In this document: in pieces, positions 19,879 to 58,000 of the stretch
Layout: the number at the start of each line of letters is the position of its first letter
How positions within the stretch are numbered: the stretch's first letter is position 1
Assembly (NCBI RefSeq): GCF_963921235.1
Contig: NC_086097.1
Span: 115,384,001 to 115,448,000 of the forward strand
Length of the DNA stretch: 64,000 nt
DNA from: Mobula hypostoma
Lineage: Eukaryota
Direction of reading: 5' to 3'
Made by a program: the position numbers and the translations under genes
The notes under the pieces: model-generated
What the model was told of the DNA's origin: nothing
Databases searched by the model: none
Seen by the model: the letters and a program-made list of their open reading frames with translations, nothing else

Positions 19879-19879
19879 C

Positions 19880-23071: not shown

Positions 23072-23074
23072 TTT

Positions 23075-34582: not shown

Positions 34583-34640
34583 TTGCATATATACAGACCG
34601 GTGCCCAGAAAAGGGCCAGTAACATCACAAAGGATCCCAC

Positions 34641-35239
34641 TCACAACACGCTGGAGGAACTCAGCAGGTCGGGCAGCATCCGTGGAAACGATGAGTCGAC
34701 GTTTCGGGCCGGAACCCTTCATCAGGACTGTAGAGGGAAGGGGCAGAGGCCCTATAAAGAAGGTGGGGGGAGGGTGGGAAGGAGAAGGCTGGTAGGTTCC
34801 AGGTGAAAAACCAGTAAGGGGAAAGATAAAGGGGTAGGGGAGGGGAAGCAGGGAGGTGATAGGCAGGAAAGGTGAAGAAGGAATAGGGGAAAACACAATG
34901 GGTAGTAGAAGGAGGCCGAACCATGAGGGAGGTGATAGGCAGCTGGGGGAGGGGGCAGAGTGAAATAGGGATAGAGGAAGGGAGGGGGAGGGAATTACTG
35001 CAAATTGGAGAATTCTATGTTTATACCAAGGAGCTAGAGACTACCTACCAGCCTTCTCCCACCCTCCCCCCCCCACCTTCTTTATAGGGCCTCTGCCCCT
35101 TCCCTCTACAGTCCTGACAAAGGGTTCCGGCCCGAAACGTCGACTCATCGTTTCCACGGATGCTGCCTGACCTGCTGAGTTCCTCCAGCGTGTTGTGAGT
35201 GTTGCTTTGACCCCAGCATCTGCAGAGTATTTTGTATTT
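34641..35239. mobile_element. Penelope fold-back insertion with two HHR motifs and a 14-bp TSD
   Basis: About 155-bp inverted arms (34641-34797 / 35043-35198); TSD ACAAAGGATCCCAC at 34627-34640 and 35240-35253. Confidence 0.92.
34694..34729 (-). ncRNA. Minimal hammerhead ribozyme motif (intact core)
   Basis: AGUC CUGAUGA A GGG UUCCGG CCC GAAAC GUC GACU: stem I, CUGANGA core, stem II, GAAA, GUC triplet. Confidence 0.8.
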
Positions 35240-35727
35240 ACAAAGGATCCCACACACCCTGCTCATGGACTGTTTGTCCCACCCCAATCAGGAAGTGTGG
35301 CATCCATATCAGGACCATCAGACTCAAAAACAGTTACTTTCCCCAAGCAGTAAGGCTGATCAACACTTCCAACCAATAACTCCACCACTACTTTATTATT
35401 TCCTAATGGTCACCTTATGGACAGCCTTGCGTCACTTTATGGACATACAATTAATCTATGTATATAAGGTATCTTATATATTTCATGATTATTATTGTTA
35501 TCATTATTATGTTCTTTATCTTCTGTGGGTTTTATGGTGCTGCATTAGATCTGAGGTAACAATTATTTTGTTCTTACACTTCTGTACAGAAAATGACATT
35601 AAACAATTTTGAATCTTAAAATAAAAATCATTATTTTTAACAATATTTCCATACATGATTTAACTGTGATTTAGAGCAAGCACTTCCAGCTGGGAAGAAT
35701 GGACAAGGAGTTTAGGGAGTGGTTGTG

Positions 35728-35978
35728 TATTGATGTGCAGGAATATGGTTTGACATTAAAAGGTGGAGGCCAAGTCTTTATGTATATTTAAAGCAGATGT
35801 TGATAGATTCTTTATTGGTCAGGGCATGAGGAGATACAGGGAGAAGGCAGGAGACTGGGGCCGAGGGGAAAATCGGATCAGCAATGACCAATCAAGAATC
35901 TATCAACATCTGCTTTAAATATACATAAAGACTTGGCCTCCACCTTTTAATGCCAAACTATATTCCTGCACATCAATA
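35728..35978. repeat. 94-bp inverted duplication at a CR1 3'-fragment junction
   Basis: 35728-35821 is the reverse complement of 35885-35978 with few mismatches. Confidence 0.9.
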
Positions 35979-38178
35979 AACCAAATGGCCTAATTCTGCT
36001 CCTATATCTTACGGTCTTATTTGTTTTTCAATTACGTTATGGAATGTTTACTGATGTCCATCTCTGCTGAGAACAGGCAAATCATAACACATCTTCGTAG
36101 CAAATGGTCATGTGTAAACTGTGGCTAAGTTCTGTAGGAATGGCACATTTCCTGCAATCTTTTCCTGTGTGGTAGATAGATAACTGTTTGCGTCTCTGTG
36201 TAAAGGCAGCAATGGGGAGGTTTGTAACTCCCAATCCTCTGTTCTCTGTGGAGCATCCAGATTGTACAACAGTGTCAAGTACATCACCAGGAACAATGAG
36301 ACGGCCTACAGCGAGGAGGTGGAAGAGCTCGAGGCCTGGTGCCAGGCAAATGACCTCTTCCTTAATATCAATAAGACAAAGGAGATGGTTATCGACTTCA
36401 CATTCTACTTAACATGAAGAAAAGTGAGTTGTCAGCAATACATATGTTTGTCCTCGGTAGGAGAACAGAAAGTTTAACGTCATGTATGTATGTGACTTGT
36501 TTCAAATTTTGATTGGTAATGTTGTGAAGCACCTTTCTATCTCATTATTCTGCCTTCGCTCAATAGTTTTCCCTGTTTTCGTAAGCTAGACAAACAGATA
36601 AACCCCGTCCCGGCGTTGTTATAGTTGAGGGTGGTTTTATTCTTCAGCAATATGTTTCAGTGTGCAAGGAGCCAGTGTGAAAAGACAGTATTTCTTGGCA
36701 TTCTAACGAAAGGCGTATTCAAAGAGTGATTGAATTTATTTGACTTCTAGCAAGTGTTTCTAACTTCTAAATGAAATGGATAAACAATAAAAAATGGCCA
36801 CCCTGATGATGAAAGCTAATGGCTTAGCAATGTGAAAATGAACAATCAACAATAGTGTTGTTGCTGTTACTATCGACACGTGAAAGGCAGTCAGCATGTA
36901 CAATGTTATTGTGACCAGTTCCTTTCTGAGTACCACTGAAATGGCAGATAGAGGAGATGTTGAGGGAGGCGTCCCATTTAAGGAGCCCGGGGAGGAGATA
37001 AGCAAGACAAAAGATGTGAGCCAGACTATACTGGCACTTTTCAGATACTTAGGTCAATTAAATGTCCCTCCAGAGCTACTTGACATCACTACTGCACATT
37101 TTTATGACTTCACAAATGGGAATTTTGTAGCTTTCGACATTCTGAACCTTGTAGTAAATAATGGGAGCATGGAAATAGTCCAGTAGACCCATCAAGCCTA
37201 CTCCCCCATTCAGGCAATTCATGCCCGATCTGTCTCCTAATTTCTTACATCTACTTCTGTCCCATATACCTTCATATCCATGGCTAACTAACCTAGAATT
37301 TAAAATAAAACATTTCACATCAATTATTGTTTAAAAGAGTTCCAGATTTTTAATACCCCTTCCATGTGAAACATTTCCAAAACACCCCTGAAAAATCTGA
37401 CTGTAATTTATAGATTAAGCTTGCCAGTGCTTAATGTCCCAATCAGAAGTACATTCTCTCCACGTGTTTAATTTATTGGAAATTTCAATCAATTAGTACA
37501 AAATTCAAAACTGCAGAAATAAAATTCTAATTTATGCAATCACTTCTAATGCAAAACATTTCTAGACTATTTCGTTGACCTTGTGGTTTCATGTTTTATA
37601 TTCTGAGTTTCTTGCTCATTCTTTTTACCATAAGTGTGATTTGTTCTTGTTATTTTGGCACGTTGGTGGTTTGCTTCAAGTTTTTCTTTGAATTTGTTCC
37701 ATGGTTTTGTTTGTTTCATAGCTGTCTGTGAAAAAATGAATCTCAAAGTTGTATACTGCTTAAATTCTTTGACAATAAATGTACTTTCAATCTTTAAACA
37801 TTGGATTGAAGTTTAATCATTGGATTATGGCTATCTTATTTTTTACTTTTCTTAACAAGTGTATCTCAAACCCAAGAAAAATTACTTCTTCCAATTTCCA
37901 GAAACTCTTACCCAGTGTATTTACCCTCTTACTCTCCATTCTAACCATTTAGATTCTCCCAACCCTTTCCCAGACCACCCTCTAGCCCCCATCACATAGT
38001 TTTGTTCCTTCCTCCACCTGATACCATCCAACTATCACACATACACTTTTCCTGCAGGGTATCCTACCCCAACACCACCTGGCTCCATATTCCCATCATC
38101 CATTACTCCACCTGGGTCCACCTATCACCTGCCAGTCTCCATCTTATCCTTCTTGCTCTCTTGTTTATAGTCGATATA

Positions 38179-39096
38179 CAGTGAACTCGGATTAATTGGG
38201 AAACATAGGGAACAATATATTTTGGCCCAATTAAATGGCTGCCCAATTAGTCAGTTTCATGGAAATAGTTAAAGTATTAAAAAGACAAACTACCATTCAA
38301 CTGAATAGCAAATTATGTATTATTGTGTATAGTAAATGAAATACAGAATAAATTAGAACATTAATGATATTACTAATATACTATAAAACTTTGTTTTTGT
38401 TCCGAATACTTACTGACGGAGGAATTCATCCAGTGTTTGCTGCGTTCTTTTGATTGACTTTAAATGAACAAAATCAACGCAGAAACCTGGTGCTGTTAAT
38501 CTGGTCCTGACGAAGGGTCTTGGCCTGAAATGTCGACTGTACTTCTTCCTATTGATGCTGCTTGGCCTGCTGCGTTCACCAGCATTTTGTGTGTGTTGCT
38601 GTTAATGAACAGGCTTGATACAATGCTTCCAACAATTGGAGCCTCCAAGTCTTCATTTTCATTGTAATATTCAAGGTAATTGTTGATACCTTCAAATTCT
38701 TCACAGTTCTTAACTTGTCAAAGTAGTGGAATCGTTTCGTTTTCACTGCTGGCCATTTCTGGCACCTCCAAACCTGAATGCTTGAAACTGTCGTGAGCAA
38801 AACGGTTCTAAGTGTCTTACTGTTTATTTCTTGCTGATTATCAGTATAAAAAATCATTCTGTTTTGAACACACACAACTGACATTATTTAAAAAAGTTCA
38901 CTTGAAGCACAACATAGTGTCTAATGGCCACGCAGGTTCACGCCACTGACATTAGTTAGAAGCTATTCAGCAACAGTCTCCTGTCCAAATTAAGTGTATT
39001 GTGTCCTAAATAAACAAATGGAATTAGTTTCTCTTCTTTAAGAGTTGTCTTAAATAAGCAGCTGCCCTGATTAACCGATTGGCCAATCAAATGTTG
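38179..39096. mobile_element. Tc1/mariner-pogo (Tigger-like) non-autonomous DNA transposon
   Basis: TA|CAGTG start; subterminal motif gctgccc..atta near both ends; degenerate right end tg|ta; sits in an old Penelope tail. Confidence 0.5.
38501..38596 (+). mobile_element. 96-bp Penelope mini-element (HHR + tail) with a 10-bp TSD
   Basis: ggtcctgacgaagggtcttggcctgaaatgtcgact...; TSD TGCTGTTAAT at 38491-38500 and 38597-38606. Confidence 0.88.
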
Positions 39097-39689
39097 TACT
39101 CGCTCTGTGCTCTCAGTCCTAATGCATGTTCTTGACCCAGAAAATTGACTATTCTTTTCCCTGCTCGACTTGTTGAGTTACACCAGCAGTTTTTTTTTTT
39201 GCCCCAGGATTCCATCATTTGCAGTCTCTAGTATCTATCCCAAACCAGGTCTTTGTTTAGCTGGTATAAGAGGTCTGTGGACATAAAACACAGCAATCCT
39301 TGAGTTTTGTGATCAATTAATGTGCCCTGTCCAAGGCATTTTAATGATCTATATACTGGGACTCATAATTCTCTTTGGGTTTCTACTGCAAATGACTATT
39401 TTTGAAATGTAGAAAGTAATCTATGTGATTTAGATCTGCCGTACATTTGCCTGCAGTGAAATCCATTCGTTAAAATTTTGTCCTTAAAGTTAATCTATTA
39501 ACTCATTCAAGACCAGTGGTGATAACAGGAATCACTTGCAAATCTCTACTGAAGTCCAGGTTTCATGCTCTGCACTGGTGAAAATTAGCACAAAATCTTG
39601 TGCCCAGCTATCAGTGCTTTGGCTGCCTTTCTGGTGCTCTGGTGGGCTCCTTATAGAGTTTTACTGGACATGAGAATGTTTTATTGGCC

Positions 39690-42600
39690 TTCAATGTCTC
39701 ACGCTTCCAACCCCTAAGCGCAGACTAAGGACCCTCTATTTACTTCTGGAACAAAAACCCAACCAGTTCCCCTCTGCTAACATTCTCGTCCAACTTGCAG
39801 AAACTGTTCTTATCTTCCACAAATTCTCCTTTTAATCACCCCATATTCTGCAAGTCAAATGAAGAGTCATGGGTCCTCACATGAACTCCAGCAATGTCTG
39901 TTTTTCTTTTTCCTTTTGTTGGTTATGTGGATTATTCTTTGTTCCAAATGTGCTTTGGCACCCCTCTCCAATTCTTTCTTCATTATATCATGTTTACATC
40001 TGTGCTGCTTCTTGCACCTCAGTGGAATCAATCTCATAAGCTTTTCCACCTACTTCCAGCATCCCCTCAAATTCACCTGGACTATTTCTGAGAGTCCCCT
40101 TCCTTTTCTGAATCTCTGTGCTACCATCTCAGGAGACAAACCTAATACCTACAATGATTAAAGCACTGAGGAAGACTGAACGCATCGAGGTGAGTGTGGA
40201 TGGTGAGCAAGTGTTCAGTGCCATCTACCAGCTGCCGGAGTCGGTGTCTGTGCGTGGCGGTCTCTCGCTCGCTACTCCTGAGGGAAGGTTTTCTCATTTG
40301 AGTAATCTCTTTCTCCCTCGATGATGCCAGAGCAAGGTGTAATCAACGGGGATTGTGGATTTGGAATCTAATTCAGGTTTATGATGTGTTCTAGTTTCTA
40401 GTTCCAGTTCTGGTCACTTTTTTTGTTGACACTTCTGAGTGATTTTTGAATCGGCCAGCCTGTAGATAATGAACACAGATGTGAACTGTACTGAAATGTG
40501 CCTTTTGATTTTGTGTTTTATATTCCGTGTTTTTGCTCTTTTTTTTGTTGCTGTTTGCACATTTTTTGCTTGTGGGGGGAGGGGGTTTTGATGTTTGATG
40601 TTTTTCTTTGAATAGGTTGGTTCCATGGTTCTTCTTTGGTTCCTGACTGTCTGTGGGGATATATTGCATACATACTTTGGTAATAAATGTACTTGGATTC
40701 TTTGAAATCTACGGACTCCCACAGCTACTTCAACTACCCCCCCCTCCCACTGTGCTTCTGGAAGTACAATATCTCTTTCTCTGTCTCTCACTGTCTGCAG
40801 CATCTGTTATCGAGATGAGGTTTTCCACACTGGGACTTCTGCAATGTCCTCCTTCTGGTAACATGACGTCCCATCTGTCAAAGTCAATGAAGCTCTCACA
40901 TACATGTCTTACATTTCCCACACTTCTGCTTTCAACATCTTCCACCCCCTACTTGGACAGAACAGAAACAGAGATCCACTAGTCTTTACGTTTCACTCCG
41001 CCAGCTTCTGCATCCAACATATTACCTCTTGCCACTTCTGGCTGCTCCAATAGGATCCCAATGCCATCCACACCTTTCCCCTTCATCACTTCCTACCCAC
41101 CACTCCTCATCCTAGAGTCACAGAAATGGGCCCTTCAGCCCATCTAGTCCATGCCGAGCCATTTAAACTACCTACTCCCATCGAACTGCGAACCAAAGCC
41201 CCCCAAACCCAAGCCATTCATGTACCTATCTAAACATCTCTTAAACATTAAATTCAAGCTCGCATGCACCACTTGTACTGACAGCTTGTACCACACTATC
41301 ACGACCGTCTGAGTGAAGTTTTCTCTCATGTTCCCCTTTCACCTTTTCACCGTTCACCCTTAACCCATGATCTCTACTTGTAGCCCCACCCAACCTCCGT
41401 GGAAAAAGCTTGCTTGTGTTTACCCTATTTACACATCTCATAATTTTGTATACTTCTATCCAAACTCCTCTCGATCTTCTATGTTCCAAGGAATGAGGTC
41501 CTAACCAATTCAATCTTTCCATATAATTGAGATCCTCCAGGACCAGCAATAATCTTGTAAATTTTCTCTGTACTCTTTCAACCTTATTTTCCTGAAGGCA
41601 GGTGACTAAAACTGCATACAATATTCCAAATTAGGCCTTACCAGTGTCTTATACAACTCAACATGACATCTCATCTCCTGTACTCAATACTTTGAGTACC
41701 AATGGCAATGTGCCTAAAGGTTTCTTTATGGCTCTATCTACCTGTGACAGCATTTTAAATGAATTATGGGCCTCTATTCCAAAATGCCTTTGTTCCACTA
41801 CACTCTTCAGTGCTCTACCATTCACTGTGTAAGATCTACTCTGGTTAGTCCTACCAATTTGCAACACCTCACACTTGTATGCATTAAAGTCCATCTTCCA
41901 TTTTTCAGCCCATTTTTCCAGTTCATCCAGATCCCGCTGCAAGTTGGGGTAGTCTTTGACACTGTCCATGACACACCATCTCTTAGTGTCATCCACAAAT
42001 GTGCTGATCCAGTTAACCAGATTATCATCCAGATTGTTGATATAGATGACAAACAACAGCGGACCCAGCACTGATCCTTGCAGCACTCCTCTAGCCACAG
42101 GCTCCAGTCAGTGAGGCAACCATCTACTACCATTCTCTGGCTTCTCCCACAGAGACAATGTTTAATCCAATATACTACCACATCTTGAATGCCGAATGAC
42201 TGAACCTTTTTGAGAAACGTCCCATGTGGGACCTTGTCAAAGTCTTTGCTAAAGTCCATGTAGACAAGAGCCGCTGCTTTGTCTTCATCAACTTTCCTGG
42301 TAACTTCCTCAAAAACTCTATAAGATTGGTTAGATATGACCTACCATGTACGAAGCCATGTTGACTATCCTTCATCAGTCCATGACTATCCAAATACTCA
42401 TATACCTTGTCATTAAGAATACTTTCCAATAACTTTCCCATTATTGATGTCACGTTCACCGTCCTATATTTTCTTGATTTATTTTTAGAGTCTTTCTTAA
42501 ATAGCAGAATAGCATTGGCTATCCTCCATCCTCTGGTAACTATCCTATCACTAAGGATGATTTAGATATCTCTGGTAGGGCCCTGGCAATTTCTTCTTGA

Positions 42601-43500
42601 AACCACAGGATGTTCTACACCTCCTCTAACACCACCCTGCAGGAACCTAAACCCCCTCCCCCAAATCCTGGTGAGGCAGGGATTCACACGCAGCTCCTCT
42701 AACATTGTGTATTTTATTTGGCGCTTTTGATGTGCCTTATTTACATGAACAAAACCAAATTTAGACTAGGTGACCATTTTGCGGTGTACCTGTGTTCTGT
42801 CCACATTGCCTTCCTGAGCTTTTGATTTTATGTCAGTTTAACTCCCCATTCCTGTTTTCACATGGACCTGCCTGTCCTCGGTCTTTGCCACTGCCAAGGT
42901 GAGGCTTAAAACAAACTAGAAAAACAGCACTTCTATTCCACTTGGGTAGCCTACAAGCCAATGGCTTGAACTTTGGATTTTTCAGTTTCAGGTAATGTAC
43001 TCTTCTTGTGTTCCTTTTCCACTTTCCACCACTCTATCCAGGTTCACTTGAGATTTCTTCCCATTTCCTTTCCTCATTACCATGACTATATACCATTTAC
43101 TGTATAGACCTATCTCTGTCACTTCTCCTTGGGTGTATCTTTCTTGTCCCCTTATTCAACTGGTTCTATCTGTCTGTAATCCTTTGCTTACCTGATTCCA
43201 CCTATTACTTATCAGCCTCCGTCTCTAACTCTTCCTACTCCTCTCCCTTATCTAGCTTCATTGACCTAAATATTATTTTCTCTTTGCTTATGCTTTCACC
43301 TATCAACAACCAACCCTCTGTCTCCTTCCTCTTTCTAGCTCCATTTGCCCACCATCCCCTCCTCCTCACCTGGTTCTTCTACCATCTGCCGCCCTCTTGT
43401 AGTTTTATGTATTTACTGCCTTCTCCACACACTCAGTCCTTCTGCAGGGTTTTGACCTGAGATGTTGACCGTTCTTTTGATTCCACAGTCTTCTCTTGCT
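39690..43500 (+). mobile_element. Old Penelope-like element, interrupted by a SINE-like repeat (about 40155-40700) and a CR1 (41115-42595)
   Basis: HPLKFTWTISESPLPFLNL matches HPALKFTWSISNTSLPFLDL of the intact ORF; EN-region remnant 42680-42995; CT-rich tail and degenerate HHR near 43435-43470. Confidence 0.75.
41115..42595 (-). mobile_element. CR1 RT and 3' end
   Basis: MDFSKDFDKVPH, GVLQGSVLGP, FVDDTK and ERVQRKFTR on the minus strand. Confidence 0.9.
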
Positions 43501-44199
43501 CACACTAGGACATCCGCTCTAAGCCTGGATGTATTTAAACTTTGCAAGCACAGCAACGTCCATTCACATAAACGGGAAACATTGTACGGTGAATTCCATT
43601 TGGCCACCGAATGGGCACTTGAGAAGCCACTGGCTGACTTATTGCAGGCTTCAGATAATTAGACAGGTCAAAAGTTGTCCACCAGTAGCCAGAGGTCAGC
43701 ATGTCCAGAACAGAAATGGTTATGCATCCTCTGCAAAACATTTTTGCAAGACTGAGGTCTGCATTTGCAGAATGAGCCATGCAAAGAGCTAAATGCTATT
43801 ACAGATGGTTTGGATTGGGATGGACAGGAAAACAGAAAAGGAAGGCAATTCATCCTCAGAAGCTCATGGCATTGTCCTCATTAGTGAGCGATCAGCCATG
43901 GTCAGTGACTCTACAGTATGTAGGAAGAATCTATAATCATTGAAGTCAGTACCTTGTGCCTTCTGGCCCCAATCTGTAGGGATGGTCTAGTTCCACCTGT
44001 AGACCCCACACTAGAGTAGTGTCCATTGCCAGCTGTATCTATTTGCCGCTATCGTTTGCACTGTTGTCCTGTTTCTCCATCACTTACAGTCCACCTGCTG
44101 GTCTATTACTAGCAGCCAGCTGGCTCTGGTGTTGCTCTTCCTTCTGTTCATCCTGTTTTGAATTGGACACCTAGCCCACGGCAAACAAACCACTGCCCT

Positions 44200-44880
44200 C
44201 CTTAATATGATGGACTCAAGTGGCCTCTGACAATCAAGTCCAGCTCTTGGCTTTCATAAACAACAGGAATTCTGCAGATGCTGGAAATTCAAGCAACATA
44301 CATCAAAGTTGCTGGTGAACGCAGCAGGCCAAGCAGCATCTCTAGGAAGAGGTGCAGTCGACGTTTCAGGCCGAGACCCTTCGTCAGGACTTCACCAGCA
44401 ACTTTGATGTATGTCTTGGCTTTCATATGTGGCTTAGCTACTAAGCCAAGCCAAACCATTTCTTCTAACAGGAGAAGGGCCAAAGGCAGGTTACTGGTGC
44501 CTTAAAACCAGTCGCTTTGGGCAGATGGGGCTCGTCAGCTGTGGTGGGCAGCTCATCTAGGAGAAGGAAAACGCTGATCTCAAACCCCTGCTGCCTTACG
44601 GCCATGCCCACTTATGGGGAAGGTTTTAGGAGTAAACTCCAAGGGAAAAATCCTGAGCTGGAGTTCCTAAGGCAATCCTACGTTGAGTTCAATGCTGAAT
44701 GGCAACTCCTGCAATACTGCTGGTGCCAAATTATTTTGGTCTTTGCTGTTCCTTTGTGTTCAAAGGGGGAGCTTGCTACAGGGGCAATAGCTTGCTCTCC
44801 GCTTCATACTGCCCTGGCTTGTGTACTTAACCTGCTGGGAAGCATCTTCCATTGTTGACCCTGACCAACGGAGGCCTCAT
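44200..44880 (+). repeat. Unclassified SINE-like or RTE-related repeat, interrupted by a Penelope hairpin
   Basis: Continuous sequence across the TSD at 44245/44414; cagctc...tgtggct motif loosely shared with 9340-9357. Confidence 0.35.
44259..44413. mobile_element. 155-bp Penelope fold-back mini-element with HHR and a 14-bp TSD
   Basis: 24-bp perfect IR (44296-44319 / 44391-44414); HHR 44356-44391 on minus; TSD TCTTGGCTTTCATA at 44245-44258 and 44414-44427. Confidence 0.92.
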
Positions 44881-45112
44881 TGTTAAAGCTCGAATTGCCT
44901 GAGAAAGAAGTGTTAAGCAAACTTATTGTGTGCAAACCCTTTCCCACTGTCAAATAAGGGAATAGCAATGAACAATGATTATTTATTATGATATTTCTAT
45001 GAGTTAGATTGACCTCCGCCCTTTATTTGTTACTATGTACTTATCATGTTCAATCAGCAAAGCCATGCAACCAACATTGTACTCAAGTCGGTATTTAAGC
45101 AATGCCCCAATT

Positions 45113-45910: not shown

Positions 45911-45919
45911 GAAAGTATT

Positions 45920-47690: not shown

Positions 47691-48356
47691 AGTCACTGGG
47701 GTTGGAGGTCCATGTAAGTCCAGAGGTCGAGGCTCAAAGGTCAAACCCATGATTGGTGTCCTGGAATCACAGTCTGAAGTTGGAGGCCCAATGACGAGTC
47801 TGAGAGTCTAGGGACAAGGACTCGAGTCCCAAACAGAGCCTGTACTGGAATTAGAGGCCTGCCTAGGTGTGTGAGTGGCTGGATGAAAGGATGGGAGGAA
47901 TTGAAAAAAAGGTTGTTTCACTGTCATTGTCTTGTGTTGATTTGTTGTTGCTAATGCTTGTGGCATGCATTGTTTCCATACAACGTTGGCACTGGAATGT
48001 GTGAAAACACTTGAAGGCTGTCCTCAGTTTAGGAATCTGGTTGTTAACGAAATGATGAATTTCACAGTTTGTTTCACTGTACATGTGATGAATAAATCTG
48101 AATGCAAATGAAGAAAAATAAAGGAGGTCATTATAGATGCTTTAGTTTTGGGCTTCCAGTCCTGCTTGCAGGGTTGGATGAACTGTTGGTGTTATATCTC
48201 TGTTCAACAAAGAGAATGGGGTTGAACTCACCATCTAGACTCATGCAAGTGGTTGGGAAAAGTCTAGAGATAATTCTGTAGTGTGATATTAATAGCAAAC
48301 AGAGAGTTAAATCAGACTGTCTGACAGCTGATGGATCTGATTCACAATCAAGTTCA

Positions 48357-48603
48357 AGTTGTGTATTTAATACTTCAGTAATATTTGAGTAATATTGTTA
48401 ATATATTGTTTGAGTAAGCATCCTTTATTTGTCAAAATAATTACGGGTTATATGTAAAAGTACATCAATTTCATCTGTTATGATGCTACCATGTGATAAG
48501 TGTGTGCCTTGCTTAAAAGTAAAAATGAAGTTAGACTTGCATTCTCGACTTCCTTGTTTCCCTTTCAATCAGTGTTTTTGTCTTGGAATTATAAGATGTA
48601 ACA
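48357..48603 (+). repeat. About 245-bp LTR-like interspersed repeat, copy 2
   Basis: gttgtgtatttaata...gatgtaaca; aligns with 34341-34582. Confidence 0.6.
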
Positions 48604-50857
48604 GTTAGAGTTTGGGTCACCTGCTGACTGTCCTCATTGCTGGACTCATTGAACCCAGAGAAGGAGCAGTGACATGTGCTGGGTTAAGTCCAGGCATACT
48701 TCACATGCACTTCCTCAACTTTAAGTACTTTGATATTTTTGTTACTTTATCTTTGAAACATAAGAACTAGAAGCAAACGGCCATCCAGTCCTTGTTCATG
48801 TTCCACATTCAATGAAATTATAGATAACCTTGTCCCTCACCACTACTTTCCTACACTAACCCCACATTCCTTTATTCCCTCAATACCCATAACCTTTCAA
48901 CCTGTTTTGAACAGAGCCTTCACGGCCCTTTTGGTTCAAAAAAGATTTACTGCCCTTTGGGTGAAAGAACTTCTCATCTTTTTTCTGATGTTTTTACCTA
49001 TTATCTTGGAACCATAACCCCTGGTTTAAAAGGTATTATTGTTAATAGTTCTTTCCTAGTGCATTATTGCTTTTTAATAAATTTATTTTTAAATACTTTT
49101 CACTGTTTTAATTACTTAATTGTATTTGAATATTTAATTTACATTTCTGACTGTCAGAAGATTTAAAGTCTGTTAAAAGACCATTGACATCTTCTAAGTT
49201 TGCCATATTACTGAGATCTGAGACTTGCATGCTGATTAGAGCCTGTTTGGCTTTGCTGAATGCCAACTGGGTGCACAGAGTCATCTTGTCCAGCTTTGCA
49301 CATCAAGTAAAAGTCCACGGCACAGGCCTGTTGTAGGACAACTCAACCAATACAATGTCTGCATGCATTGATTAAAGGCAGACTCTGCTCAACATTGACT
49401 GAGTTTTCTGTTGAAGAGACAGAGATGTTTGGTGAGGATAACATGGTTGAGCTCATGGACTTTCAGTGTCTGGAAATCCATCCTAGTCAGTTGCACTAAT
49501 TGTGCTACAAGGCAAGAAAGCGTAACCTGATAACTGCAATTGAGTTACTGCAAATTGAAGTGAAGGAAAGATCCCCCTTATATCACTGATACAACATACA
49601 TTCATAGTAAAAAATCTTCCTTCTGCTGCCTCACTGGATGGTATAACAGAATGAAGTCGGATTATTTTTGACTCATTACAATGGACTATTAGTTCAGGTT
49701 GTCTTACATGCATTGAATAGGCAGATGATTCACTAAATAAGTTATCATTTCATTGGTGAATAAATGAGCATGTTTGCATATGTATATCATATAAAATGTT
49801 TTGTTTTGAAGTTTTAAATAATGTCTTCATTACAAAGCATAAATTTCTCACTGAAAGCTAGATATTATTTTTGTTCCAGGAAGGAAGCTCAACTTGCCAA
49901 TGACCCTAGTGGAGTACAAAGTGGTTCAGGGAACTAGCATTCAGGTCATGGTCTCCTGGCTCATTGTCTTTAATGGAGACATCCAATTGTGAATTGCAGG
50001 AAGATTAACTTGGTACTATATATGTGTTCCTGGAGTAGGAAGATAGCAGAAGTTAAAGGGCATTCAGTAAGATAATGCTTGATCAACACAAATTCCCCAA
50101 ACTAATCCCATTTCCCTTGAATCCCTTAATATTAAAAAAATGAATTACATATATTTTTGCTATGAGTACTGTGGATTTTGACATTTCATGTTGCCCATTT
50201 GGAAAGAAAATCCTTTAAATTTGTCCTGAGTGACTGAGCTGTTATTTACAGAATATAAATTTTGAAGTAATTTCTTTTTTTCCATGTAGAAAATTAATAT
50301 TTACAATGGCTTTCCAACACTGAGAATTAGCTTATTTGGATGCTCAGCAGATTAGACTCCTTTCCTGATTTTCCAACATAGCATCTGGCATCTAAATTAA
50401 ACAACTAAGTAAAATCTCCTAAAAGTACCATGAAAACTTTGACAGAAACTGAATAGCCTTTGAGAGCTAAAGAGGAAATTGTTGACTATAACTTGTGGCA
50501 TATATTTATTTTTTAATGAGTCACTCTATAATATATTGTCTGAACATGTTAAACAGCTGCACATTTTACAAGCTAAGTAATTTATCCGTGGTGTATCATT
50601 TTTGTTCAGAATCAGAATCAGATTTATTACCACACACGTCATGAAATTTGTGTTTTGCTCCAGCAGTACAGTGCAATACATAATTAATTACTGTTACTAT
50701 AAGAAATATATAACTGTAAGCAAACAGTGCAAAAAGAGGGCAAAGAAGTGAGGTAGTGTTCATGGGTCCATAGGTTGTTCAGCAATCAGAGTGTGGAAAG
50801 GAAACCATACTTAAAATGTTGAATGAATGTCTTCAGGCCCTATATCTCCTCCATTAT

Positions 50858-51170
50858 GGGTGGCAAGGTAGTGTGGCAGTTGGCACATCACTTTACAGAG
50901 CCAGCCGTAAGATCAGCGTTCGATTTCCAGCACAGTCTGTAAGGAGATTGTATGTTCTCCCTGTTTCACATGGGTTTTCTTTGTGTGCTTGGGTTTCCTC
51001 CCACATTCCAAAGGTGTATGGTTAGGGTTAGTGAGTTGTGGGCAGGCTATGTTGGCACTGGATTCATGGCAATAGTTGAAGGCTGCCCAGCATAATCCTC
51101 GCTGATTTGATTTGATGCAAAAGGTGCATTTCACTATATGTGGCGACGTACATGCGACAAATAAAGCGAA
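50858..51170 (+). mobile_element. tRNA-derived V-SINE (HE1-like)
   Basis: A/B-box-like tggcaaggtag and gttcgattt; V-domain tgtatgttctccctg...gggtttcctcccacattccaaag. Confidence 0.75.
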
Positions 51171-52308
51171 TCTAGTTTTTGTTTATTCCCAGTGATAGTA
51201 ATCAGAAGAGTGCGTGTCCTGGATGGTAAAGGTCCTTAATGATGGATATTGCCTCCTTAAGCCACCACCTTTTGACAGCAGTGAGGCGAGTGCCCGTAAT
51301 GAATCTGGCTGTGTCTACTCCACTTTCCCTACTGTATGTACACACTGGCTGTTAATACGAACAATGTAATTAATTGTATGTTTTGATGTATATGTGATAA
51401 GTAAATCTGAATCTGAACCCTCTGCAGCCTCTTTTGATCCCGGGTATTGAAGCTTCCACAACAAGTAGTGATGCAGTCAGTCATATTGGTTCTATGAAGA
51501 TATGAACGTTGAAATTTAATAACATTGGACGTGTAGTATATAATGAAGAACTTGAGCTAGGTTTATGCCAAAATATACGAGATATTAGCTCAAGGTCAAT
51601 GTTCAACTTTAAGCAAGGTTATCAACATATAGAAATCTGATAGGAAAACTATCTCACCATCTTTCCACCTCTTGTTCTTGACTACCACCAACTCATCCTC
51701 TGCATCCCAATGGATCCTACCACCAAACGTACCTTCACCTCACCCCATCTCTCCGCTTTCCACAAGAATCCCTCCCTCCCTGATTTCCTTGTCCATTTGT
51801 CCCTCCCCACTCCTGCCAACATAGCTCTTCAGATCACTGAGGCACATAAGCCTCCAAAGCACAACAAGGTTGTGGTCCTCTTGGTGGTCAGATGTACTGT
51901 GAAAGCAGTTATTTCCTGATAACCATGATCATAATAAATGGCGGTGCAGGCTCGAAGGGCCAAATGGCCTACTCCTGCACCTATTTTCTATGTTTCTATG
52001 TTTCTATGAATTTTTAGCTGTAAAATCCACTGGGCTGATTTGCAGTGCGTTCAAAGACTGGGTTCCTATATAGTCATGACAAGCATTGAATCCAGAGCAA
52101 TCTTGCCTGCTGGAACTAGCAGCGGATGAGGGTAAGAGGAACAGCAGGACAATATTCATAAAGTCACCTGTCATAATAAGTCATGGGTATGAAGGGGAAA
52201 ATACTCCAATTGTTATCATCCTAAAATACACCAAGGGAAATGGAAGCAACACACATCAAAGTTGCTGGTGAACGCAGCAGGCCAGGCAGCATCTATAGGA
52301 AGAGGCGC

Positions 52309-52344
52309 AGTCGACGTTTCAGGCCGAGACCCTTCGTCAGGACT
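52309..52344 (-). ncRNA. Minimal hammerhead ribozyme in the Penelope 3' pseudo-LTR
   Basis: AGUC CUGACGA AGGGUCUCGGCCU GAAAC GUC GACU; predicted cleavage between 52313 and 52312. Confidence 0.8.
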
Positions 52345-52641
52345 AACTGAAGGAAGAGTGAGTAAGGGATTTGAAAGCTGGAGGGGGAGGGGGAGATGCA
52401 AAATGATAGGAGAAGACAGGAGGGGGAGGGATAGAGCCGAGAGCTGGACAGGTGATAGGCAAAAGGGGATACGAGAGGATCATGGGACAGGAGGTCCGGG
52501 AAGAAAGACGGGGGGGGGGGGGTTGACCCAGAGGATGGGCAAGACGTATATTCAGAGGGACAGAGGGAGAAAAAGGAGAGTGAGAGAAAGAATGTATGCA
52601 TAAAAATGAGTAACAGCTGGGGTACGAGGGGGAGGTGGGGC

Positions 52642-55600
52642 CTAGCGGAAGTTAGAGAAGTCAATGTTCATGCCATCAGATTGGAGGCTACCCAGACGGA
52701 ATATAAGGTGTTGTTCCTCCAACCTGAGTGTGGCTTCATCTTTACAGTAGAGGAGGCCGTGGATAGACATGTCAGAATGGGAATGGGATGTGGAATTAAA
52801 ATGTGTGGCCACTGGGAGATCCTGCTTTCTCTGGCGGACAGAGCGTAGATGTTCAGCAAAGCGGTCTCCCAGTCTGCGTCGGGTCTCACCAATATATAAA
52901 AGGCCACATCGGGAGCACCGGACGCAGTATATCACCCCAGTCGACTCACAGGTGAAGTGATGCCTCACCTGGAAGGACTGTTTGGGGCCCTGAATGGTGG
53001 TAAGGGAGGAAGTGTAAGGGCATGTGTAGCACTTGTTCCGCTTACACGGATAAGTGCCAGGAGGGAGATCAGTGGGGAGGGATGGGGGGGACGAATGGAC
53101 AAGGGAGTTGTGTAGGGAGCGATCCCTGCGGAATGCAGAGAGAGGGGGGGAGGGAAAGATGTGCTTAGTGGTGGGATCCCGTTGGAGGTGGCGGAAGTTA
53201 CGGAGAATTATATGTTGGACCCGGAGGCTGGTGGGGTGGTAGGTGAGGACCAGGGGAACCCTATTCCTAGTGGGGTGGTGGGAGGATGGAGTGAGAGCAG
53301 ATGTACGTGAAATGGGGGAGATGCGTTTAAGAGCAGAGTTGATAGTGGAGGAAGGGAAGCCCCTTTCTTTAAAAAAGGAAGACATCTCCCTCGTCCTAGA
53401 ATGAAAAGCCTCATCCTGAGAGCAGATGCGGCGGAGATGGAGGAATTGCGAGAAGGGGATGGCGTTTTTGCAAGAGACAGGGTGAGAAGAGGAATAGTCC
53501 AGATAGCTGTGAGAGTCAGTAGGCTTATAGTAGACATCAGTGGATAAGCTGTCTCCAGAGACAGAGACAGAAAGATCTAGAAAGGGGAGGGAGGTGTTGG
53601 AAATGGACCAGGTAAACTTGAGGGCAGGGTGAAAGTTGGAGGCAAAGTTAATAAAGTCAACGAGTTCTGCATGCGTGCAGGAAGCAGCGCCAATGCAGTC
53701 GTCGATGTAGCGAAGGAAAAGTGGGGGACAGATACCAGAATAGGCACGGAACATGGATTGTTCCACAAACCCAACAAAAAGGCAGGCATAGCTAGGACTC
53801 ATACGGGTGCCCATAGCTACTCCTTTAGTTTGGAGGAAATGGGAGGAGCAAAAGGAGAAATTATTAAGAGTAAGGACTAATTCCGCTAGACGGAGCAGAG
53901 TGGTGGTAGAGGGGAACTGATTAGGTCTGGAATCCAAAAAGAAGCATAGAGCTTTGAGACCTTCCTGATGGGGGATGGAAGTATATAAGGACTGGACATC
54001 CATGGTGAAAATAAAGCGGTGGGGGCCAGGGAACTTAAAATCATCGAAAAGTTTAAGAGCGTGAGAAGTGTCACGAACATAGGTCGGAAGGGATTGAACA
54101 AGGGGTGATAAAACAGTGTCGAGGTATGCAGAAACGAGTTCGGTGGGGCAGGAGCAAGCTGAGACAATAGGTCGGCCAGGACAAGCAGGTTTGTGGATCT
54201 TGGGTAGGAGGTAGAAACAGGAAGTGCGGGGTGTGGGAACTATAAGGTTGGTAGCAGTGGATGGGAGATCCCCTGAGCGGATAAAGTCGTTGATAGTGTG
54301 GGAGACAATGGCCTGGTGCTCCTTTGTGGGGTCACGATCGAGGGGTAAATAAGAGGAGGTATCCGCGAGTTGTCGCTGTGCCTCGGCAAGGTAGAGGTCA
54401 GTACGCCAGACTACAACAGCACCTCCTTTATCAGCAGGTTTAATAATAATGTTAGGATTAGTGCGGAGGGAGTGGAGAGCAGAGCGTTCCAAAGGAGTGA
54501 GGTTGGAATGGGGACAAGGTGCAGTAAAGTCGAGACGGTTGATGTCCCGTCGGCAGTTAGCAATAAAGAGATCCAGAGCAGGCAGAAGACCAGAGCGGGG
54601 TGTCCATGAAGAAGAGGAGGGTTGAAGACGGGAGAAGGGGTCATCGGTGGGGGTGGAAGAGTCCTTGCCTAAGAAGTAGGCTCGGAGACGGTGGAAGAAA
54701 AGTTCCGCATCGTGGCGAACACGGAACTCGCTGAGTTGTGGTCGAAGGGGGACAAACGTGAGGCCCTTACTGAGAACAGAGCGTTCTGCCTCCGACAGTT
54801 GAAGGTCGGAGGGGATGGTAAAGACCCGGCACAGATGAGAGTTGGGATCAGAGGGGGGAGAGGGGAGGCTGGGGGTGTCAATGGAGAGGGGAGGGTTGGG
54901 GTGAGAGGAAGATGGAGCCTCTGAGGGCCCAGGAGTTGACGGTGGGATCTGAGGAAGACGGGGTTGCAGAGTGGTGGTGGGGGAAGGGGAGACGGGAGTC
55001 ACAATAGCAGCACATAAAGACCCGGCCTGGAGTTCAAGGCTGGAGTCGCAGTTGGTGGTTGCGTAATCATTTCGAATGTGTCCATGGTCGTTGCTGGAGT
55101 CCGGGTTTTGAATATGCCCTGAGGTGTTGGAGCCGCCGAGATCAATGGCAGGCGCCGCAATTGAAAGTTCATGCCTGCTAGCGTCGGGGCCAGCAGGCTC
55201 TGGAGTCCGTAGATGTAAGATCTTGCAATCTTTGCCTAACATGACAAAGTCAAAAAAACGGCGATTGCAGGCGTGGATCCGACGGAGGATGAAATAACGG
55301 GTAGGACCATTACAGACGGCGAAGAAAGTGTCCCGAAGGTGTGGAAGGGTCTGGGATAGGGACACCAAGTACCTCCTCATGGCGGAGACCGTCGCCTTCA
55401 GAGCTTGACGGGAGAAGCGGCGAGAGGCAGAGTCAATAAAATGTGAGTACCTGGGATCCTCAGAAGGTCCAAATTGAGAGGCTTGGAAACGAATCCTAAA
55501 GCCAACTGGAGTAAGTTGGCGACGGAGGCACGTTCCAAGAAAGGATACATGGCTGTGATAGCGAGTCTGAGTCGAAGTGTGGTCGAAAAGTTGAAGAGCC

Positions 55601-55686
55601 GAAGAAATTACAGATGGGGAGCAGTGAGAGATGGTTTCACTGAACTCCCGTCGAAGAGAGGATCTAAACTTCTTCGGTGTAGGCAT
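52642..55686 (-). CDS. Penelope-like reverse transcriptase / GIY-YIG endonuclease, 1014 aa from first ATG (MPTPKK)
   Basis: ADKGG, YLLPKIHK, RPIVS, DVQSLYT, GVAMG, RYIDD and YYKPT motifs; Cys linker CKRNKCYTC; GVIYCVRCSRCGLLYIGET...RFAEH; no stops; the ORF-track start at 55764 is GTG. Confidence 0.95.
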   Translation of the reverse strand: MPTPKKFRSSLRREFSETISHCSPSVISSALQLFDHTSTQTRYHSHVSFLGTCLRRQLTPVGFRIRFQASQFGPSEDPRYSHFIDSASRRFSRQALKATVSAMRRYLVSLSQTLPHLRDTFFAVCNGPTRYFILRRIHACNRRFFDFVMLGKDCKILHLRTPEPAGPDASRHELSIAAPAIDLGGSNTSGHIQNPDSSNDHGHIRNDYATTNCDSSLELQAGSLCAAIVTPVSPSPTTTLQPRLPQIPPSTPGPSEAPSSSHPNPPLSIDTPSLPSPPSDPNSHLCRVFTIPSDLQLSEAERSVLSKGLTFVPLRPQLSEFRVRHDAELFFHRLRAYFLGKDSSTPTDDPFSRLQPSSSSWTPRSGLLPALDLFIANCRRDINRLDFTAPCPHSNLTPLERSALHSLRTNPNIIIKPADKGGAVVVWRTDLYLAEAQRQLADTSSYLPLDRDPTKEHQAIVSHTINDFIRSGDLPSTATNLIVPTPRTSCFYLLPKIHKPACPGRPIVSACSCPTELVSAYLDTVLSPLVQSLPTYVRDTSHALKLFDDFKFPGPHRFIFTMDVQSLYTSIPHQEGLKALCFFLDSRPNQFPSTTTLLRLAELVLTLNNFSFCSSHFLQTKGVAMGTRMSPSYACLFVGFVEQSMFRAYSGICPPLFLRYIDDCIGAASCTHAELVDFINFASNFHPALKFTWSISNTSLPFLDLSVSVSGDSLSTDVYYKPTDSHSYLDYSSSHPVSCKNAIPFSQFLHLRRICSQDEAFHSRTREMSSFFKERGFPSSTINSALKRISPISRTSALTPSSHHPTRNRVPLVLTYHPTSLRVQHIILRNFRHLQRDPTTKHIFPSPPLSAFRRDRSLHNSLVHSSPPSLPTDLPPGTYPCKRNKCYTCPYTSSLTTIQGPKQSFQVRHHFTCESTGVIYCVRCSRCGLLYIGETRRRLGDRFAEHLRSVRQRKQDLPVATHFNSTSHSHSDMSIHGLLYCKDEATLRLEEQHLIFRLGSLQSDGMNIDFSNFR

Positions 55687-55876
55687 CACCGGAAGAGGCT
55701 TCGCAGTAGTGAATTTAAACGCAAACAACAGGAATTCTGCAGATGCTGGAAATTCAAGCAACACACATCAAAGTTGCTGGTGAACGCAGCAGGCCAGGCA
55801 GCATTAGGGTGCAGAACTGCTATTTCTCTTGTATTTCATGCTATTTAACTTTCCTATACTTGCTTGTATTTTTATA

Positions 55877-58000
55877 TAATCAGAGTCAGGTTTAATATAA
55901 CCAGTGTACATCGTGAAATTTGTTAACTTTGCAGCAGCAGTACAATGCAATACATGATAAATATAGAAAAATTGAATTACAGTAAATATATATATATATA
56001 CTAAACAGTTAAATTAAAATATGTAGGGCAAAAGCAGAATTTAAAGAAAGTAGTGAGGTAGTGTTCATGGGTTTAATGTCCATTTAGGAATTTTATGGCA
56101 GAGGGCAAGGAGCTGTTCCTGAATCATTGAGTGTATGCCTTTAGGCTTCTATACCTCCTTCCTGATGGTAGCAATGAGAAGAGGGCGTGTACTGGGTGGC
56201 GGGGTCCTTATTGATGGACACTGCCTTTCTGAGGCACTGCTCCTTGAAGATATCTTGGATACTACAGAGGTTATTAGTCAAGGTGGACCTGACTAATCTT
56301 ACAACTTTCAGCAGCTTACTTCGATCCTGTGCAGTAGCTCTCCATAACAGACGGTGATGTAGTCTGTCAGAATTCTCACCACGGTACATCTGTAGAAGTT
56401 TTCAAGTGTTTTAGGTGACAAATCATATCTCCTCAAACTGTAAATGAAATGTAGCTGCTGTCTTGCTTTCTTTATAGCCGCATCAATATGTGGGTCCAGG
56501 TTAAGTCCTCAGAGATATTGACAACAAGGAGCTTGCAATTTCTCACTCTCTCCGCTTGTGATCCCTCTGTGAGGATTGATGTGTATTCCTCGTCTTACCC
56601 TTTCTGAAGTCCACAACAACCTTTTGGCACACAACATTGAGTGCAGGGTTGTTGCTGCAACCCCACTCAACTAGCTGGCATAACTCGCTCCTGTACGCCC
56701 TCTTGTGTCCATCTGAGATTCTGCCAGCAATGGTTGTATCACCAGAAAATTTATGGATGGCATTTGATCTATGCCTAGCCACACTGTCATGGGTGTAGAG
56801 AGAGTAGAGCAGTGGGCTAAGCACACACCTCTGAGGTGCGCCAGTATTGCTTATCAGGGAGGTGAAGGTGTTATTACTAATCCATAGAGATTGTGGTCTT
56901 TCAGTTAGAAAGTTAAGGATCCATTTGGAAATGGAGGCAGAGAGGCCCAGGTTCTGTGGCTTTTTGAGCAGGACTGTAGGAATGAAGCTTTTAAACACTG
57001 AGTTATAGTCAGTAAACAGCATCCTGACATAGGTATTAGCATTGTCCAGATGATCCAAGGTCGCGTGGAGAGCCATTAAGAGCGTGTCTGCCTTAGACCT
57101 ATTGTGGCAATAGGTAAATTGCAGTGGTCCAAGTCCTTTCTCAGGCAAGGATTGATTCTAGCCATGATCACCCTCTGAAAGTACTTCATCACCGTAGATG
57201 TGAGAGTGACTGGACAATAGTTGTTGAGGTAGCTCACACTGCTCTTTTTGGGCACCGGTATAATTGTTGCCCTTTTAAAGCAAGTGGGAACTTCTAACTG
57301 TAGTGGTGAGAGATTGAAAATGTCTTTGAATAACCTGCCAGTTAGCTGGCATGTTTTCAGAGCCTGTCCAGGTACTCCATCATGGCCTGCTGCTTCACGA
57401 GGGTTCACCTTCCTGGAAGGCCGCCTGACATCGGCTTCCAAGACAGAGATCTCAGGGTCACCGGATGTAGCAGGGATTCTCACATCTGAGGTTATGTTCT
57501 CCTTTTCAAAGTGGATATAGAAGGCGTTTACCTCATCTGGCAGTGAAACATCACTGTCATTCATGATCACGAGGAAATCTGCAGATGCTGGACTTTCAAG
57601 CAACCCACATAAAAGTTGCTGGTGAACACAGCAGGCCAGGCAGCATCTCTAGGAAGAGGTACAGTCGACTTCATCCTGACGAAGGGTCTCGGCCCGTAAC
57701 GTCGACTGTACCTCTTCCTAGAGATGCTGCCTGGCCTGCTGCATTCACCAGCAACTTTTATGTGGGTTGCCTGTCATTCATGATGTTGGGTTTCACTTTG
57801 TAGGAAGTAATGGCCTGAAAGCTCTGCCAGAGTTGACGTGCATCCGCTGCCACCTCCAAACTTGCTTGGAATTGTTTCTTAGCTCTTGAAATAACCCTCC
57901 ACATGTTATATCTGGTTTTCTTGTACAGATCTGGGTCACCAGACTTAAATGTCATAGGTCTAGCTCAGGAAGACTATGAACCTCCTGGTTCATCCATGGC
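55877..58000 (-). mobile_element. Rex1/Babar LINE (RT + 3' end), degraded, with a Penelope insertion
   Basis: CFKRATIIPVPKK, YCPVTLTS, YVRMLFTDYNSVF, GAPQRCVLSPLLYSLYT, KFSGDTT. Confidence 0.9.
57568..57770. mobile_element. 203-bp Penelope fold-back mini-element with HHR and a 14-bp TSD
   Basis: 70-bp IR (57600-57669 / 57701-57770); HHR core in the loop (57672-57707); TSD CTGTCATTCATGAT at 57554-57567 and 57771-57784. Confidence 0.93.

What the first reader, a model, noticed from the sequence alone, without database searches (positions are those of the whole stretch)
34627..57784. Hammerhead-bearing fold-back Penelope mini-elements, each with an exact 14-bp TSD
Seen: three independent insertions (34641-35239, 44259-44413, 57568-57770) consist of a Penelope tail plus an inverted copy of itself and carry an HHR motif. 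Each is flanked by a perfect 14-bp duplication of unrelated host sequence (ACAAAGGATCCCAC, TCTTGGCTTTCATA, CTGTCATTCATGAT). Known: Penelope-like elements carry minimal HHRs and produce inverted 5' structures, with TSD length generally described as variable. Inference: a fixed 14-nt stagger across different subfamilies may mark a defined two-nick GIY-YIG integration route in which both ends prime on the RNA tail. The products could also be a retrozyme-like non-autonomous family mobilised by the intact element in this window.
Basis: partly seen in the sequence, partly recalled or inferred. Interest (0 to 1): 0.8.

Follow-up and report, generated by a model that had tools for sequence, protein, structure and literature searches.

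The report
Two-armed Penelope retroelement insertion stubs
Three short hairpin-shaped insertions, each between two exact 14-base copies of its landing site, match the published back-to-back insertion pattern of Penelope-like jumping genes and are likely one-off dead copies; the shared 14-base length may reflect a preferred cut spacing, but three cases cannot show it is fixed.

Summary
The observation largely holds. All 3 insertions have exact 14-bp duplications; 0 of 3000 random placements reach 14. Each is two 5'-truncated arms of a Penelope-like element (PLE), joined head to head, with a 32-41-nt tail on one arm only. This is the published inverted-pLTR-plus-tail unit (PMC3846280, PMC8557442). 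In vitro, a lizard PLE nicks both strands and starts cDNA at two sites bounding the tail (PMC11167929), so two-ended priming is largely anticipated in print. The retrozyme-family idea fails: all three junctions differ, no unit has tandem ribozymes, one hammerhead core is mutated, and insertion 1 is only 77-79% identical to the long element. A fixed 14-nt stagger is unproven. No genome is held, and three equal lengths have probability 0.02-0.09 under a peaked but variable spacing. In this window a one-armed copy has a 10-bp duplication and a fourth inverted unit has none. This scan noted the same pattern before, elsewhere in this genome and in others, with 12-17-bp duplications (unchecked notes). 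Verdict: known kind, low interest; a narrow TSD peak remains worth a histogram.

The parts
34627..34640 (+). Insertion 1, left TSD copy (14 bp); its last 3 bases also match the element's continuation
34641..35046 (-). Insertion 1, left arm: 5'-truncated PLE copy (last ORF codons, 3' UTR/pLTR, minimal hammerhead 34698-34725), ending at the tail-less (short) site
35043..35239 (+). Insertion 1, right arm (197 bp) with mutated hammerhead core and 41-nt tail; 3-4-nt overlap with the left arm at the junction
35240..35253 (+). Insertion 1, right TSD copy
38491..38606 (+). Control: one-armed (non-inverted), tail-less PLE stub 38504-38600 starting in hammerhead stem I, inside a 10-bp duplication (38491-38500/38597-38606) that overlaps the element end by up to 4 bases
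44245..44258 (+). Insertion 2, left TSD copy (14 bp)
44259..44391 (-). Insertion 2, left arm (133 bp): starts on the first base of hammerhead stem I, intact core 44360-44387, 38-nt tail
44391..44413 (+). Insertion 2, right arm (23 bp), ending at the short site; identical to the left arm including a variant absent from the long element; 1-nt junction overlap
44414..44427 (+). Insertion 2, right TSD copy
57554..57567 (+). Insertion 3, left TSD copy (14 bp), inside a LINE-like coding frame
57568..57669 (-). Insertion 3, left arm (102 bp): begins about 3 nt before the predicted ribozyme cut site, 32-nt tail
57670..57770 (+). Insertion 3, right arm (about 100 bp) with a mutated hammerhead core (GAAA to GTAA), ending at the short site
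57771..57784 (+). Insertion 3, right TSD copy
52244..55804 (-). Long EN+ PLE copy of the source kind: 1014-aa open ORF (52642-55686) with RT, CX4CX2C linker and GIY-YIG; 3' pLTR with hammerhead (52313-52340), no tail, upstream pLTR cut short, no TSD found
22775..23074 (.). Fourth inverted unit: tailed arm 22775-23004 (minus) joined head to head to a 72-bp piece of the ORF 5' end (plus); no TSD found

Best explanation
The three units are likely one-off, dead-on-arrival insertions of endonuclease-bearing Penelope-like elements, each probably made when two staggered nicks 14 bases apart primed two short cDNAs that were then joined back to back. SHOWN by sequence: two arms head to head; both outer ends at the RNA-3' side; one arm ends 32-41 nt further (tail) than the other; exact 14-bp duplications; the two arms of a unit share variants that other copies in the window lack; internal junctions all differ. 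INFERRED: the GIY-YIG domain nicks both strands, leaving 3' overhangs. One overhang primes reverse transcription at the distal start site (giving the tail) and the other at the proximal site, on RNA from the same source locus. Both cDNAs stop early and are joined through 1-4-nt microhomology, and fill-in duplicates the target. The nick spacing is probably peaked near 14 in this lineage but variable, not fixed. The hammerhead is carried because it lies about 60-130 nt upstream of the start sites; in these stubs it is probably inert.
For: Exact TSDs and chance control. Empty-site checks. Tails of 41, 38 and 32 nt on one arm only in 3 of 3 units; in the long element's family, long ends map to -38/-40 and short ends to -70 to -76 relative to the ATG. 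Arm-to-arm differences: insertion 2 has 0 in 23 nt; insertion 3 has 2 in 70, both at one CpG; insertion 1 has 7 in 157, of which 3 fit CpG decay and 4 lie in a C-rich run. Junctions are unique, with short overlaps in insertions 1 and 2. Source kind: RVT_1 E 3.4e-05 and GIY-YIG E 1e-03, both below Pfam gathering scores, with DKG, YIDD and CX4CX2C motifs. Literature: the same unit with inverted pLTR, 31-bp tail and 8-, 9- and 10-bp TSDs in Adineta (PMC3846280); 30-40-bp tail at one end and variable TSD (PMC8557442); both-strand nicking and extension, two RT start sites bounding the tail, and a predicted dimer (PMC11167929); hammerhead pairs on opposite strands 100-700 bp apart already noted (PMC4209133).
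Against: Three identical lengths do favour a narrow distribution: the chance that all three are equal is 0.09, 0.04, 0.02 and 0.01 for SD 1, SD 1.5, SD 2 and uniform 8-17, so 'variable' rests partly on unchecked notes and on papers about other species. The order of events (simultaneous versus sequential nicks, one RNA or two, cDNA-cDNA annealing versus self-primed fold-back) is not shown by the sequence. Insertion 3's junction has no clear overlap and includes 4-5 bases of ambiguous origin. The in vitro data are from a Poseidon-clade element, whereas this source has the Neptune/Nematis-type linker.
Confidence: 0.78

Rival explanations
1. Fixed-stagger route: a dimeric RT-endonuclease makes two concerted nicks exactly 14 nt apart for every two-armed insertion, across subfamilies, as a distinct pathway from one-armed insertion.
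For: 3 of 3 TSD-bearing two-armed units have 14 bp although the arms belong to families only 76-79% alike. The single one-armed copy with a TSD has 10 bp. A PLE protein is predicted to dimerise and cuts both strands (PMC11167929).
Against: n = 3 in a window chosen for the coincidence, among 275 noted windows of this genome. The fourth inverted unit has no TSD. Edge microhomology makes two of the three staggers ambiguous by 2-3 nt. Unchecked notes from this genome give 12-15 and 16 bp. Inverted units in Adineta have 8, 9 and 10 bp.
Confidence: 0.08
2. Amplified non-autonomous, retrozyme-like family: the fold-back unit is transcribed, self-cleaves or circularises, and is re-inserted by the PLE protein.
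For: Hammerhead motifs are present. Non-LTR retrozymes are PLE derivatives and occur in a cartilaginous fish (10.64898/2026.07.22.740005).
Against: Three different junctions and lengths (599, 155, 203 bp). No unit has two direct-repeat ribozymes, which defines retrozymes. In insertion 1 the ribozyme is predicted to be buried in a 157-bp duplex, and in insertion 3 the core is mutated. At insertion 2 the summed contig depth falls from 7-12 million over the shared arm to 18,517 just past the junction, close to the flanking host repeat (11,211 and 49,200, run X1; a coarse measure, not a copy number).
Confidence: 0.04
3. One nick primes one cDNA; the mirror arm is then made by self-priming or template switching on the new cDNA (or on an antisense transcript), and the second nick and tail come from later endonuclease resolution of the hairpin intermediate.
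For: Arms share private variants, as copying from the first arm would also give. PMC3846280 proposes self-priming, and PMC8557442 attributes the tail to endonuclease resolution. In insertions 2 and 3 the short arm is wholly or largely contained in sequence covered by the other arm.
Against: In insertion 1 the arm without the tail is the long one and the tailed arm has 41 nt with no template in the other arm. In insertion 3 the right arm includes about 27 nt of ribozyme absent from the left arm. In each case, therefore, each arm holds sequence the other lacks. The two tail-bounding ends are RT start sites in vitro.
Confidence: 0.1

Closest known systems
Insertion units of canonical EN+ Penelope-like elements (inverted pLTR plus one-sided tail), e.g. 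Pen2a_Av of Adineta vaga (PMC3846280; PMC8557442 Fig. 2; PMC2377424 Fig. 1C)
   Same: Head-to-head 5'-truncated arms, a 30-40-bp tail on one end only, a TSD, and a minimal type I hammerhead in the pLTR.
   Different: Here the units are very short (155-599 bp) and lack an ORF, and the TSDs are 14 bp against 8, 9 and 10 bp in the Adineta passages read.
Poseidon element of Anolis carolinensis (PAc) in vitro (PMC11167929)
   Same: Both strands nicked and extended; two internal RT start sites that bound the tail; predicted dimer.
   Different: PAc is Penelope/Poseidon clade with start sites inside the ORF; here the ends lie 38-76 nt upstream of the ATG and the source has a CX4CX2C linker. The text read reports no nick spacing or TSD length.
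Non-LTR retrozymes (PMC7229834; 10.64898/2026.07.22.740005)
   Same: Small, non-coding, type I hammerhead, PLE-derived.
   Different: Retrozymes are head-to-tail tandem units with a ribozyme in each unit and circular RNAs; these units are head to head, unique, with one or no intact minimal core.
Twin priming of LINE-1 5' inversions (recalled, no call; a search for this term with Penelope gave 2 unrelated listings)
   Same: Two staggered 3' overhangs each prime cDNA, the cDNAs join by microhomology, and the TSD equals the stagger.
   Different: In L1 the second primer starts upstream so the arms do not overlap; here both start within about 40 nt of each other, so the arms are mirror copies.

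Membership tests
EN+ Penelope-like element insertion unit | Derived from the pLTR of an element with one RT + C-terminal GIY-YIG ORF | tested here: met
   Arms 77-98% identical to the pLTR pieces of the long element; its ORF matches RVT_1 and GIY-YIG, both below gathering score; insertion 1 includes ORF-end codons.
EN+ Penelope-like element insertion unit | Inverted 5'-truncated copy adjoining the 5' end (head to head) | tested here: met
   3 of 3 units.
EN+ Penelope-like element insertion unit | 30-40-bp tail on one end only | tested here: met
   41, 38 and 32 nt; the 41 becomes 38 if the 3-nt TSD-edge match is counted as element.
EN+ Penelope-like element insertion unit | Target-site duplication | tested here: met
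   14 bp in 3 of 3; empty-site length or frame checks.
EN+ Penelope-like element insertion unit | Minimal type I hammerhead motif in the pLTR | tested here: met
   4 intact cores in the window, 0 expected from 100 shuffles; 2 of them in the three units. Rfam gave 0 hits; single-strand folds are not significant (z -1.2 to 0.3). Cleavage was not testable.
Neptune/Nematis clades (source element) | CX2-5CxxC linker motif between RT and EN, plus two cysteines between GIY and YIG | tested here: met
   CX4CX2C at residue 881 and CxxC inside the GIY-YIG core (definition from PMC8557442).
Neptune/Nematis clades (source element) | Placement in an RT phylogeny | not tested
   No tree was built; Neptune versus Nematis is unresolved.
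Non-LTR retrozyme | At least two head-to-tail units, each with a complete type I hammerhead | tested here: not met
   Arms are head to head; at most one intact core per unit; definition.
Non-LTR retrozyme | Same unit repeated at many loci | tested here: not met
   3 of 3 junctions unique in the window; depth drops past the junction of insertion 2. Genome-wide junction counts could not be run.
Non-LTR retrozyme | Circular monomer RNAs | not testable with these tools
   Only contigs were available; they cannot show RNA ends or strand.
Fixed-TSD fold-back DNA transposon (MITE-type) | Terminal inverted repeats reaching both ends and shared by family members | tested here: not met
   One end always carries an unpaired 32-41-nt tail, and the units differ in length and family.

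The most novel reading that the evidence does not exclude
In this fish-like genome, two-armed Penelope insertions have a sharply peaked target duplication (mode 14, most within 1-2 bp) shared by subfamilies only 77% alike, while one-armed insertions have shorter ones (about 9-10 bp). That would be the genomic footprint of a dimeric RT-GIY-YIG complex that nicks both strands in concert and primes both cDNAs, and would give the first measured geometry for PLE integration.
Probability: 0.3. Interest if true: 0.5.

Novelty: new member of a known kind. Interest (0 to 1): 0.2.

Why it matters
As it stands it matters little: the architecture is published and such stubs are very abundant in this genome. 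The one open point is the distribution of TSD lengths. The PLE integration cycle after priming is still undefined (PMC8557442, PMC11167929), and I found no TSD histogram for a vertebrate PLE in seven literature searches. A narrow peak specific to two-armed units would constrain the nick geometry and could be tested directly with the existing in vitro system.

Tried and rejected
No whole genome is held for this window, so the genome-wide TSD histogram and junction counts could not be made. Pattern scans for the ribozyme or tail found 0 matches in viral contigs, metagenome contigs and prokaryote genome contigs; protein-based scans found no relative in genome or viral contigs. These blanks are expected for an animal element and are no evidence. 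Sequencing-run search: no RNA holder listed. One run guessed to be RNA was laid; it held contigs only and shows nothing on ends, strand or circles. Presence or absence of insertion 2 in other organisms is undetermined: the flank contigs of runs X5 and X9 stop at 44250 and 44242, before the junction. One search printed only 15 of 285 joints, 12 of 160 between-letter rows and 24 of 2181 loose ends, so TSDs of other copies could not be paired. Of the 12 between-letter rows shown, 9 are backward joints inside the arm at 9 different coordinate pairs (depth 26-221 against 10.5-16.8 for the unique flank); their kind is not printed, so I give them little weight. No paralogous copy spanning any target site was found inside the window. 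Older PLE remnants (39103-43476, 61763-62268) gave no credible TSD, and the copy at 7-108 is cut by the window edge; these were left out of the TSD count. I recall a review giving 10-15-bp TSDs for Penelope elements but could not find it, so it is not used as evidence. The one supplement of PMC3846280 held as text has no 'TSD' entry; figures, other papers' supplements and the preprint's supplements were not seen and may hold TSD lengths. Rejected readings: MITE, solo LTR, assembly artefact (a run contig enters insertion 2 from the unique flank, 43900-44280) and chance repeats.
Full report
OBSERVATION. The three insertions are at the stated coordinates. Each is flanked by an exact 14-bp direct repeat that cannot be extended in either direction. 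In 3000 random placements of the same insert lengths the longest abutting repeat was 9 bp, and in 1500 placements with 5-bp slack it was 11 bp. The repeats are true target duplications. For insertion 3, removing the insert and one repeat gives a stop-free frame of 127 codons across the site, upstream of an RVT_1 match. For insertion 2, a contig from a paralogous host repeat has exactly the 39 letters expected between 44246 and 44455 for an empty site. For insertion 1 the local frame reads through. All three targets are therefore other repeats, not unique DNA.

ANATOMY. In every unit the left arm is antisense and the right arm sense on the + strand, so the arms meet head to head and both host junctions lie at the RNA-3' side of an arm. 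One arm runs 41, 38 or 32 nt further than the other; the tailed arm is on the right in insertion 1 and on the left in insertions 2 and 3. In the long element's coordinates the long ends fall at -38 to -40 and the short ends at -70 to -76 before the ATG, also in the copies at 22775, 38504 and 52244. Insertion 1's left arm is about 405 bp and reaches the last codons of a PLE ORF; its right arm is 197 bp. Insertion 2 is 133 + 23 bp and insertion 3 is 102 + about 100 bp. The internal junctions are all different, with a 3-4-nt overlap in insertion 1, 1 nt in insertion 2 and an ambiguous 4-5 nt in insertion 3. Within a unit the arms are nearly identical and share variants that the long element lacks: 0 differences in 23 nt, 2 in 70 (one CpG) and 7 in 157 (3 fitting CpG decay, 4 in a C-rich run). 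Both arms therefore came from one source sequence at the time of insertion (inference).

RIBOZYME. The motif CTGANGA...GAAACGTC occurs 4 times in the window against 0 in 100 shuffles: once each in insertions 1 and 2, in the 22775 unit and in the long element. Insertion 3's core and insertion 1's second core are mutated. Rfam finds nothing and isolated folds are unremarkable. This fits minimal hammerheads, which need a second copy to fold (PMC4209133, parts 1-2 of 4 read). A transcript through insertion 1 would bury its ribozyme in a long duplex.

SOURCE. The element at 52244-55804 has an open 1014-aa frame with RVT_1 and GIY-YIG matches, both below Pfam's gathering scores, and DKG, YIDD and CX4CX2C motifs. 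The last marks the Neptune/Nematis clades (PMC8557442, passages and Introduction read); no tree was built. It lacks the 5' part of the upstream pLTR, the tail and a TSD. Arm identity to its pLTR pieces is 77-79%, 96-98% and 92-94% for insertions 1-3, so it can stand only for the subfamily of insertion 2. That the host is a cartilaginous fish is my recollection of these repeats and the wording of scan notes, not a call result.

MECHANISM. Shown: the geometry above. Inferred: the endonuclease nicks both strands 14 nt apart, leaving 3' overhangs. One primes at the distal and one at the proximal start site, both cDNAs stop early, they are joined by microhomology, and fill-in duplicates the target. 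Each arm of insertions 1 and 3 holds sequence the other lacks, which argues against simple copying of one arm from the other. The in vitro basis is published: a lizard PLE cleaves and extends both strands, starts at two sites that bound the tail, and is predicted to be a dimer (PMC11167929, parts 1-3 of 4 read). The architecture is published too: inverted pLTR, 31-bp tail and TSDs of 8, 9 and 10 bp in Adineta (PMC3846280, passages), inverted flanks as the commonest form in Drosophila virilis (PMC2377424, passages), and opposite-strand ribozyme pairs 100-700 bp apart. Very short insertions are also the norm for de novo PLE insertions in Chlamydomonas (median 128 bp; PMC9977147, passages). PMC8969392 (passages) lists inverted pLTRs and short extensions as routine features.

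IS 14 FIXED? For: 3 of 3 TSD-bearing two-armed units, from two families 76-79% alike. The chance that three lengths agree is 0.09, 0.04, 0.02 and 0.01 for SD 1, SD 1.5, SD 2 and uniform 8-17, so the data do lean to a narrow distribution. Against: the window was picked for this coincidence among 275 noted windows of the genome. The fourth inverted unit (22775-23074) has no TSD. Edge microhomology leaves insertions 1 and 2 ambiguous by 3 and 2 nt. The one-armed stub has 10 bp. Unchecked scan notes give 12-15, 14 and 16 bp in this genome and 17 bp in another; I treat them as leads, not support. The decisive histogram could not be run (empty scans). I put a strictly fixed stagger at 0.08 and a sharp peak specific to two-armed units at 0.3.

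RETROZYME FAMILY? Retrozymes are head-to-tail repeats with a ribozyme in each unit (PMC7229834, passages; preprint 10.64898/2026.07.22.740005, part 1 of 5 and passages). None of the three units meets this, their junctions are unique, and summed contig depth at insertion 2 falls from 7-12 million over the shared arm to 18,517 past the junction, about the level of the host repeat (coarse, not a copy number). Rejected.

VERDICT. The feature is real and is a new member of a known kind. Seven literature searches showed no TSD histogram for a vertebrate PLE, but most subscription papers, figures and most supplements were not visible. Interest 0.2; about 0.5 if the peaked, class-specific stagger holds genome-wide.

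Noticed in passing
window 34627-57784, six nick sites of the three units: TG sits at +3/+4 downstream of 4 of 6 inferred nicks (background 0.077; nominal P 5e-4, but post hoc over many positions and dinucleotides) and at 0 of 2 nicks of the one-armed stub. The TSDs are 50-64% AT.
   Followed up: partly
window 44391, 38504, 57674, 7: Four short arms start within the 5' strand of hammerhead stem I, and the left arm of insertion 3 starts about 3 nt before the predicted cut site. Scan note e1-9807999 reports the stem I edge start genome-wide.
   Followed up: partly
joint 44257 to 44292, opposite strands: 4 contigs in run X1 and 3 in X5 appear to join the long end directly to about the short end on the opposite strand, as a circularised or tandemly repeated two-armed unit would. 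Rare and not examined.
   Followed up: no
joint 44391 back to 44357: A 35-nt go-back joint spanning just the hammerhead occurs in all 4 runs (1-3 contigs each): possibly tandem ribozyme duplications, possibly a stem I alignment artefact.
   Followed up: no
window 22775-23330: An inverted PLE unit whose second arm is a 72-bp piece of the ORF 5' end (97% to 55575-55646) runs straight into LINE-like sequence with no TSD; a chimera or a later deletion.
   Followed up: partly
window 35725-35981: A LINE-like 3' tail (CR1-type by recall) containing a 97-bp, 96% inverted duplication with a 63-nt loop; not PLE sequence.
   Followed up: no
window 18615-18784 and 19712-19881: A 170-bp, 91% inverted repeat of AT-rich sequence with no other match in the window, 927 bp apart, abutting a LINE-like tail.
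   Followed up: no
window 39103-43476 and 61763-62268: Old, decayed PLE remnants: one with direct pLTR traces and ORF pieces, interrupted by other repeats; one head-to-head pair about 500 bp long. No credible TSD.
   Followed up: partly
window 52244-55804: The long PLE keeps an open 1014-aa ORF, and its two pLTR pieces share a 49-bp exact repeat, so it is a young copy, yet it has no TSD, tail or upstream ribozyme.
   Followed up: partly
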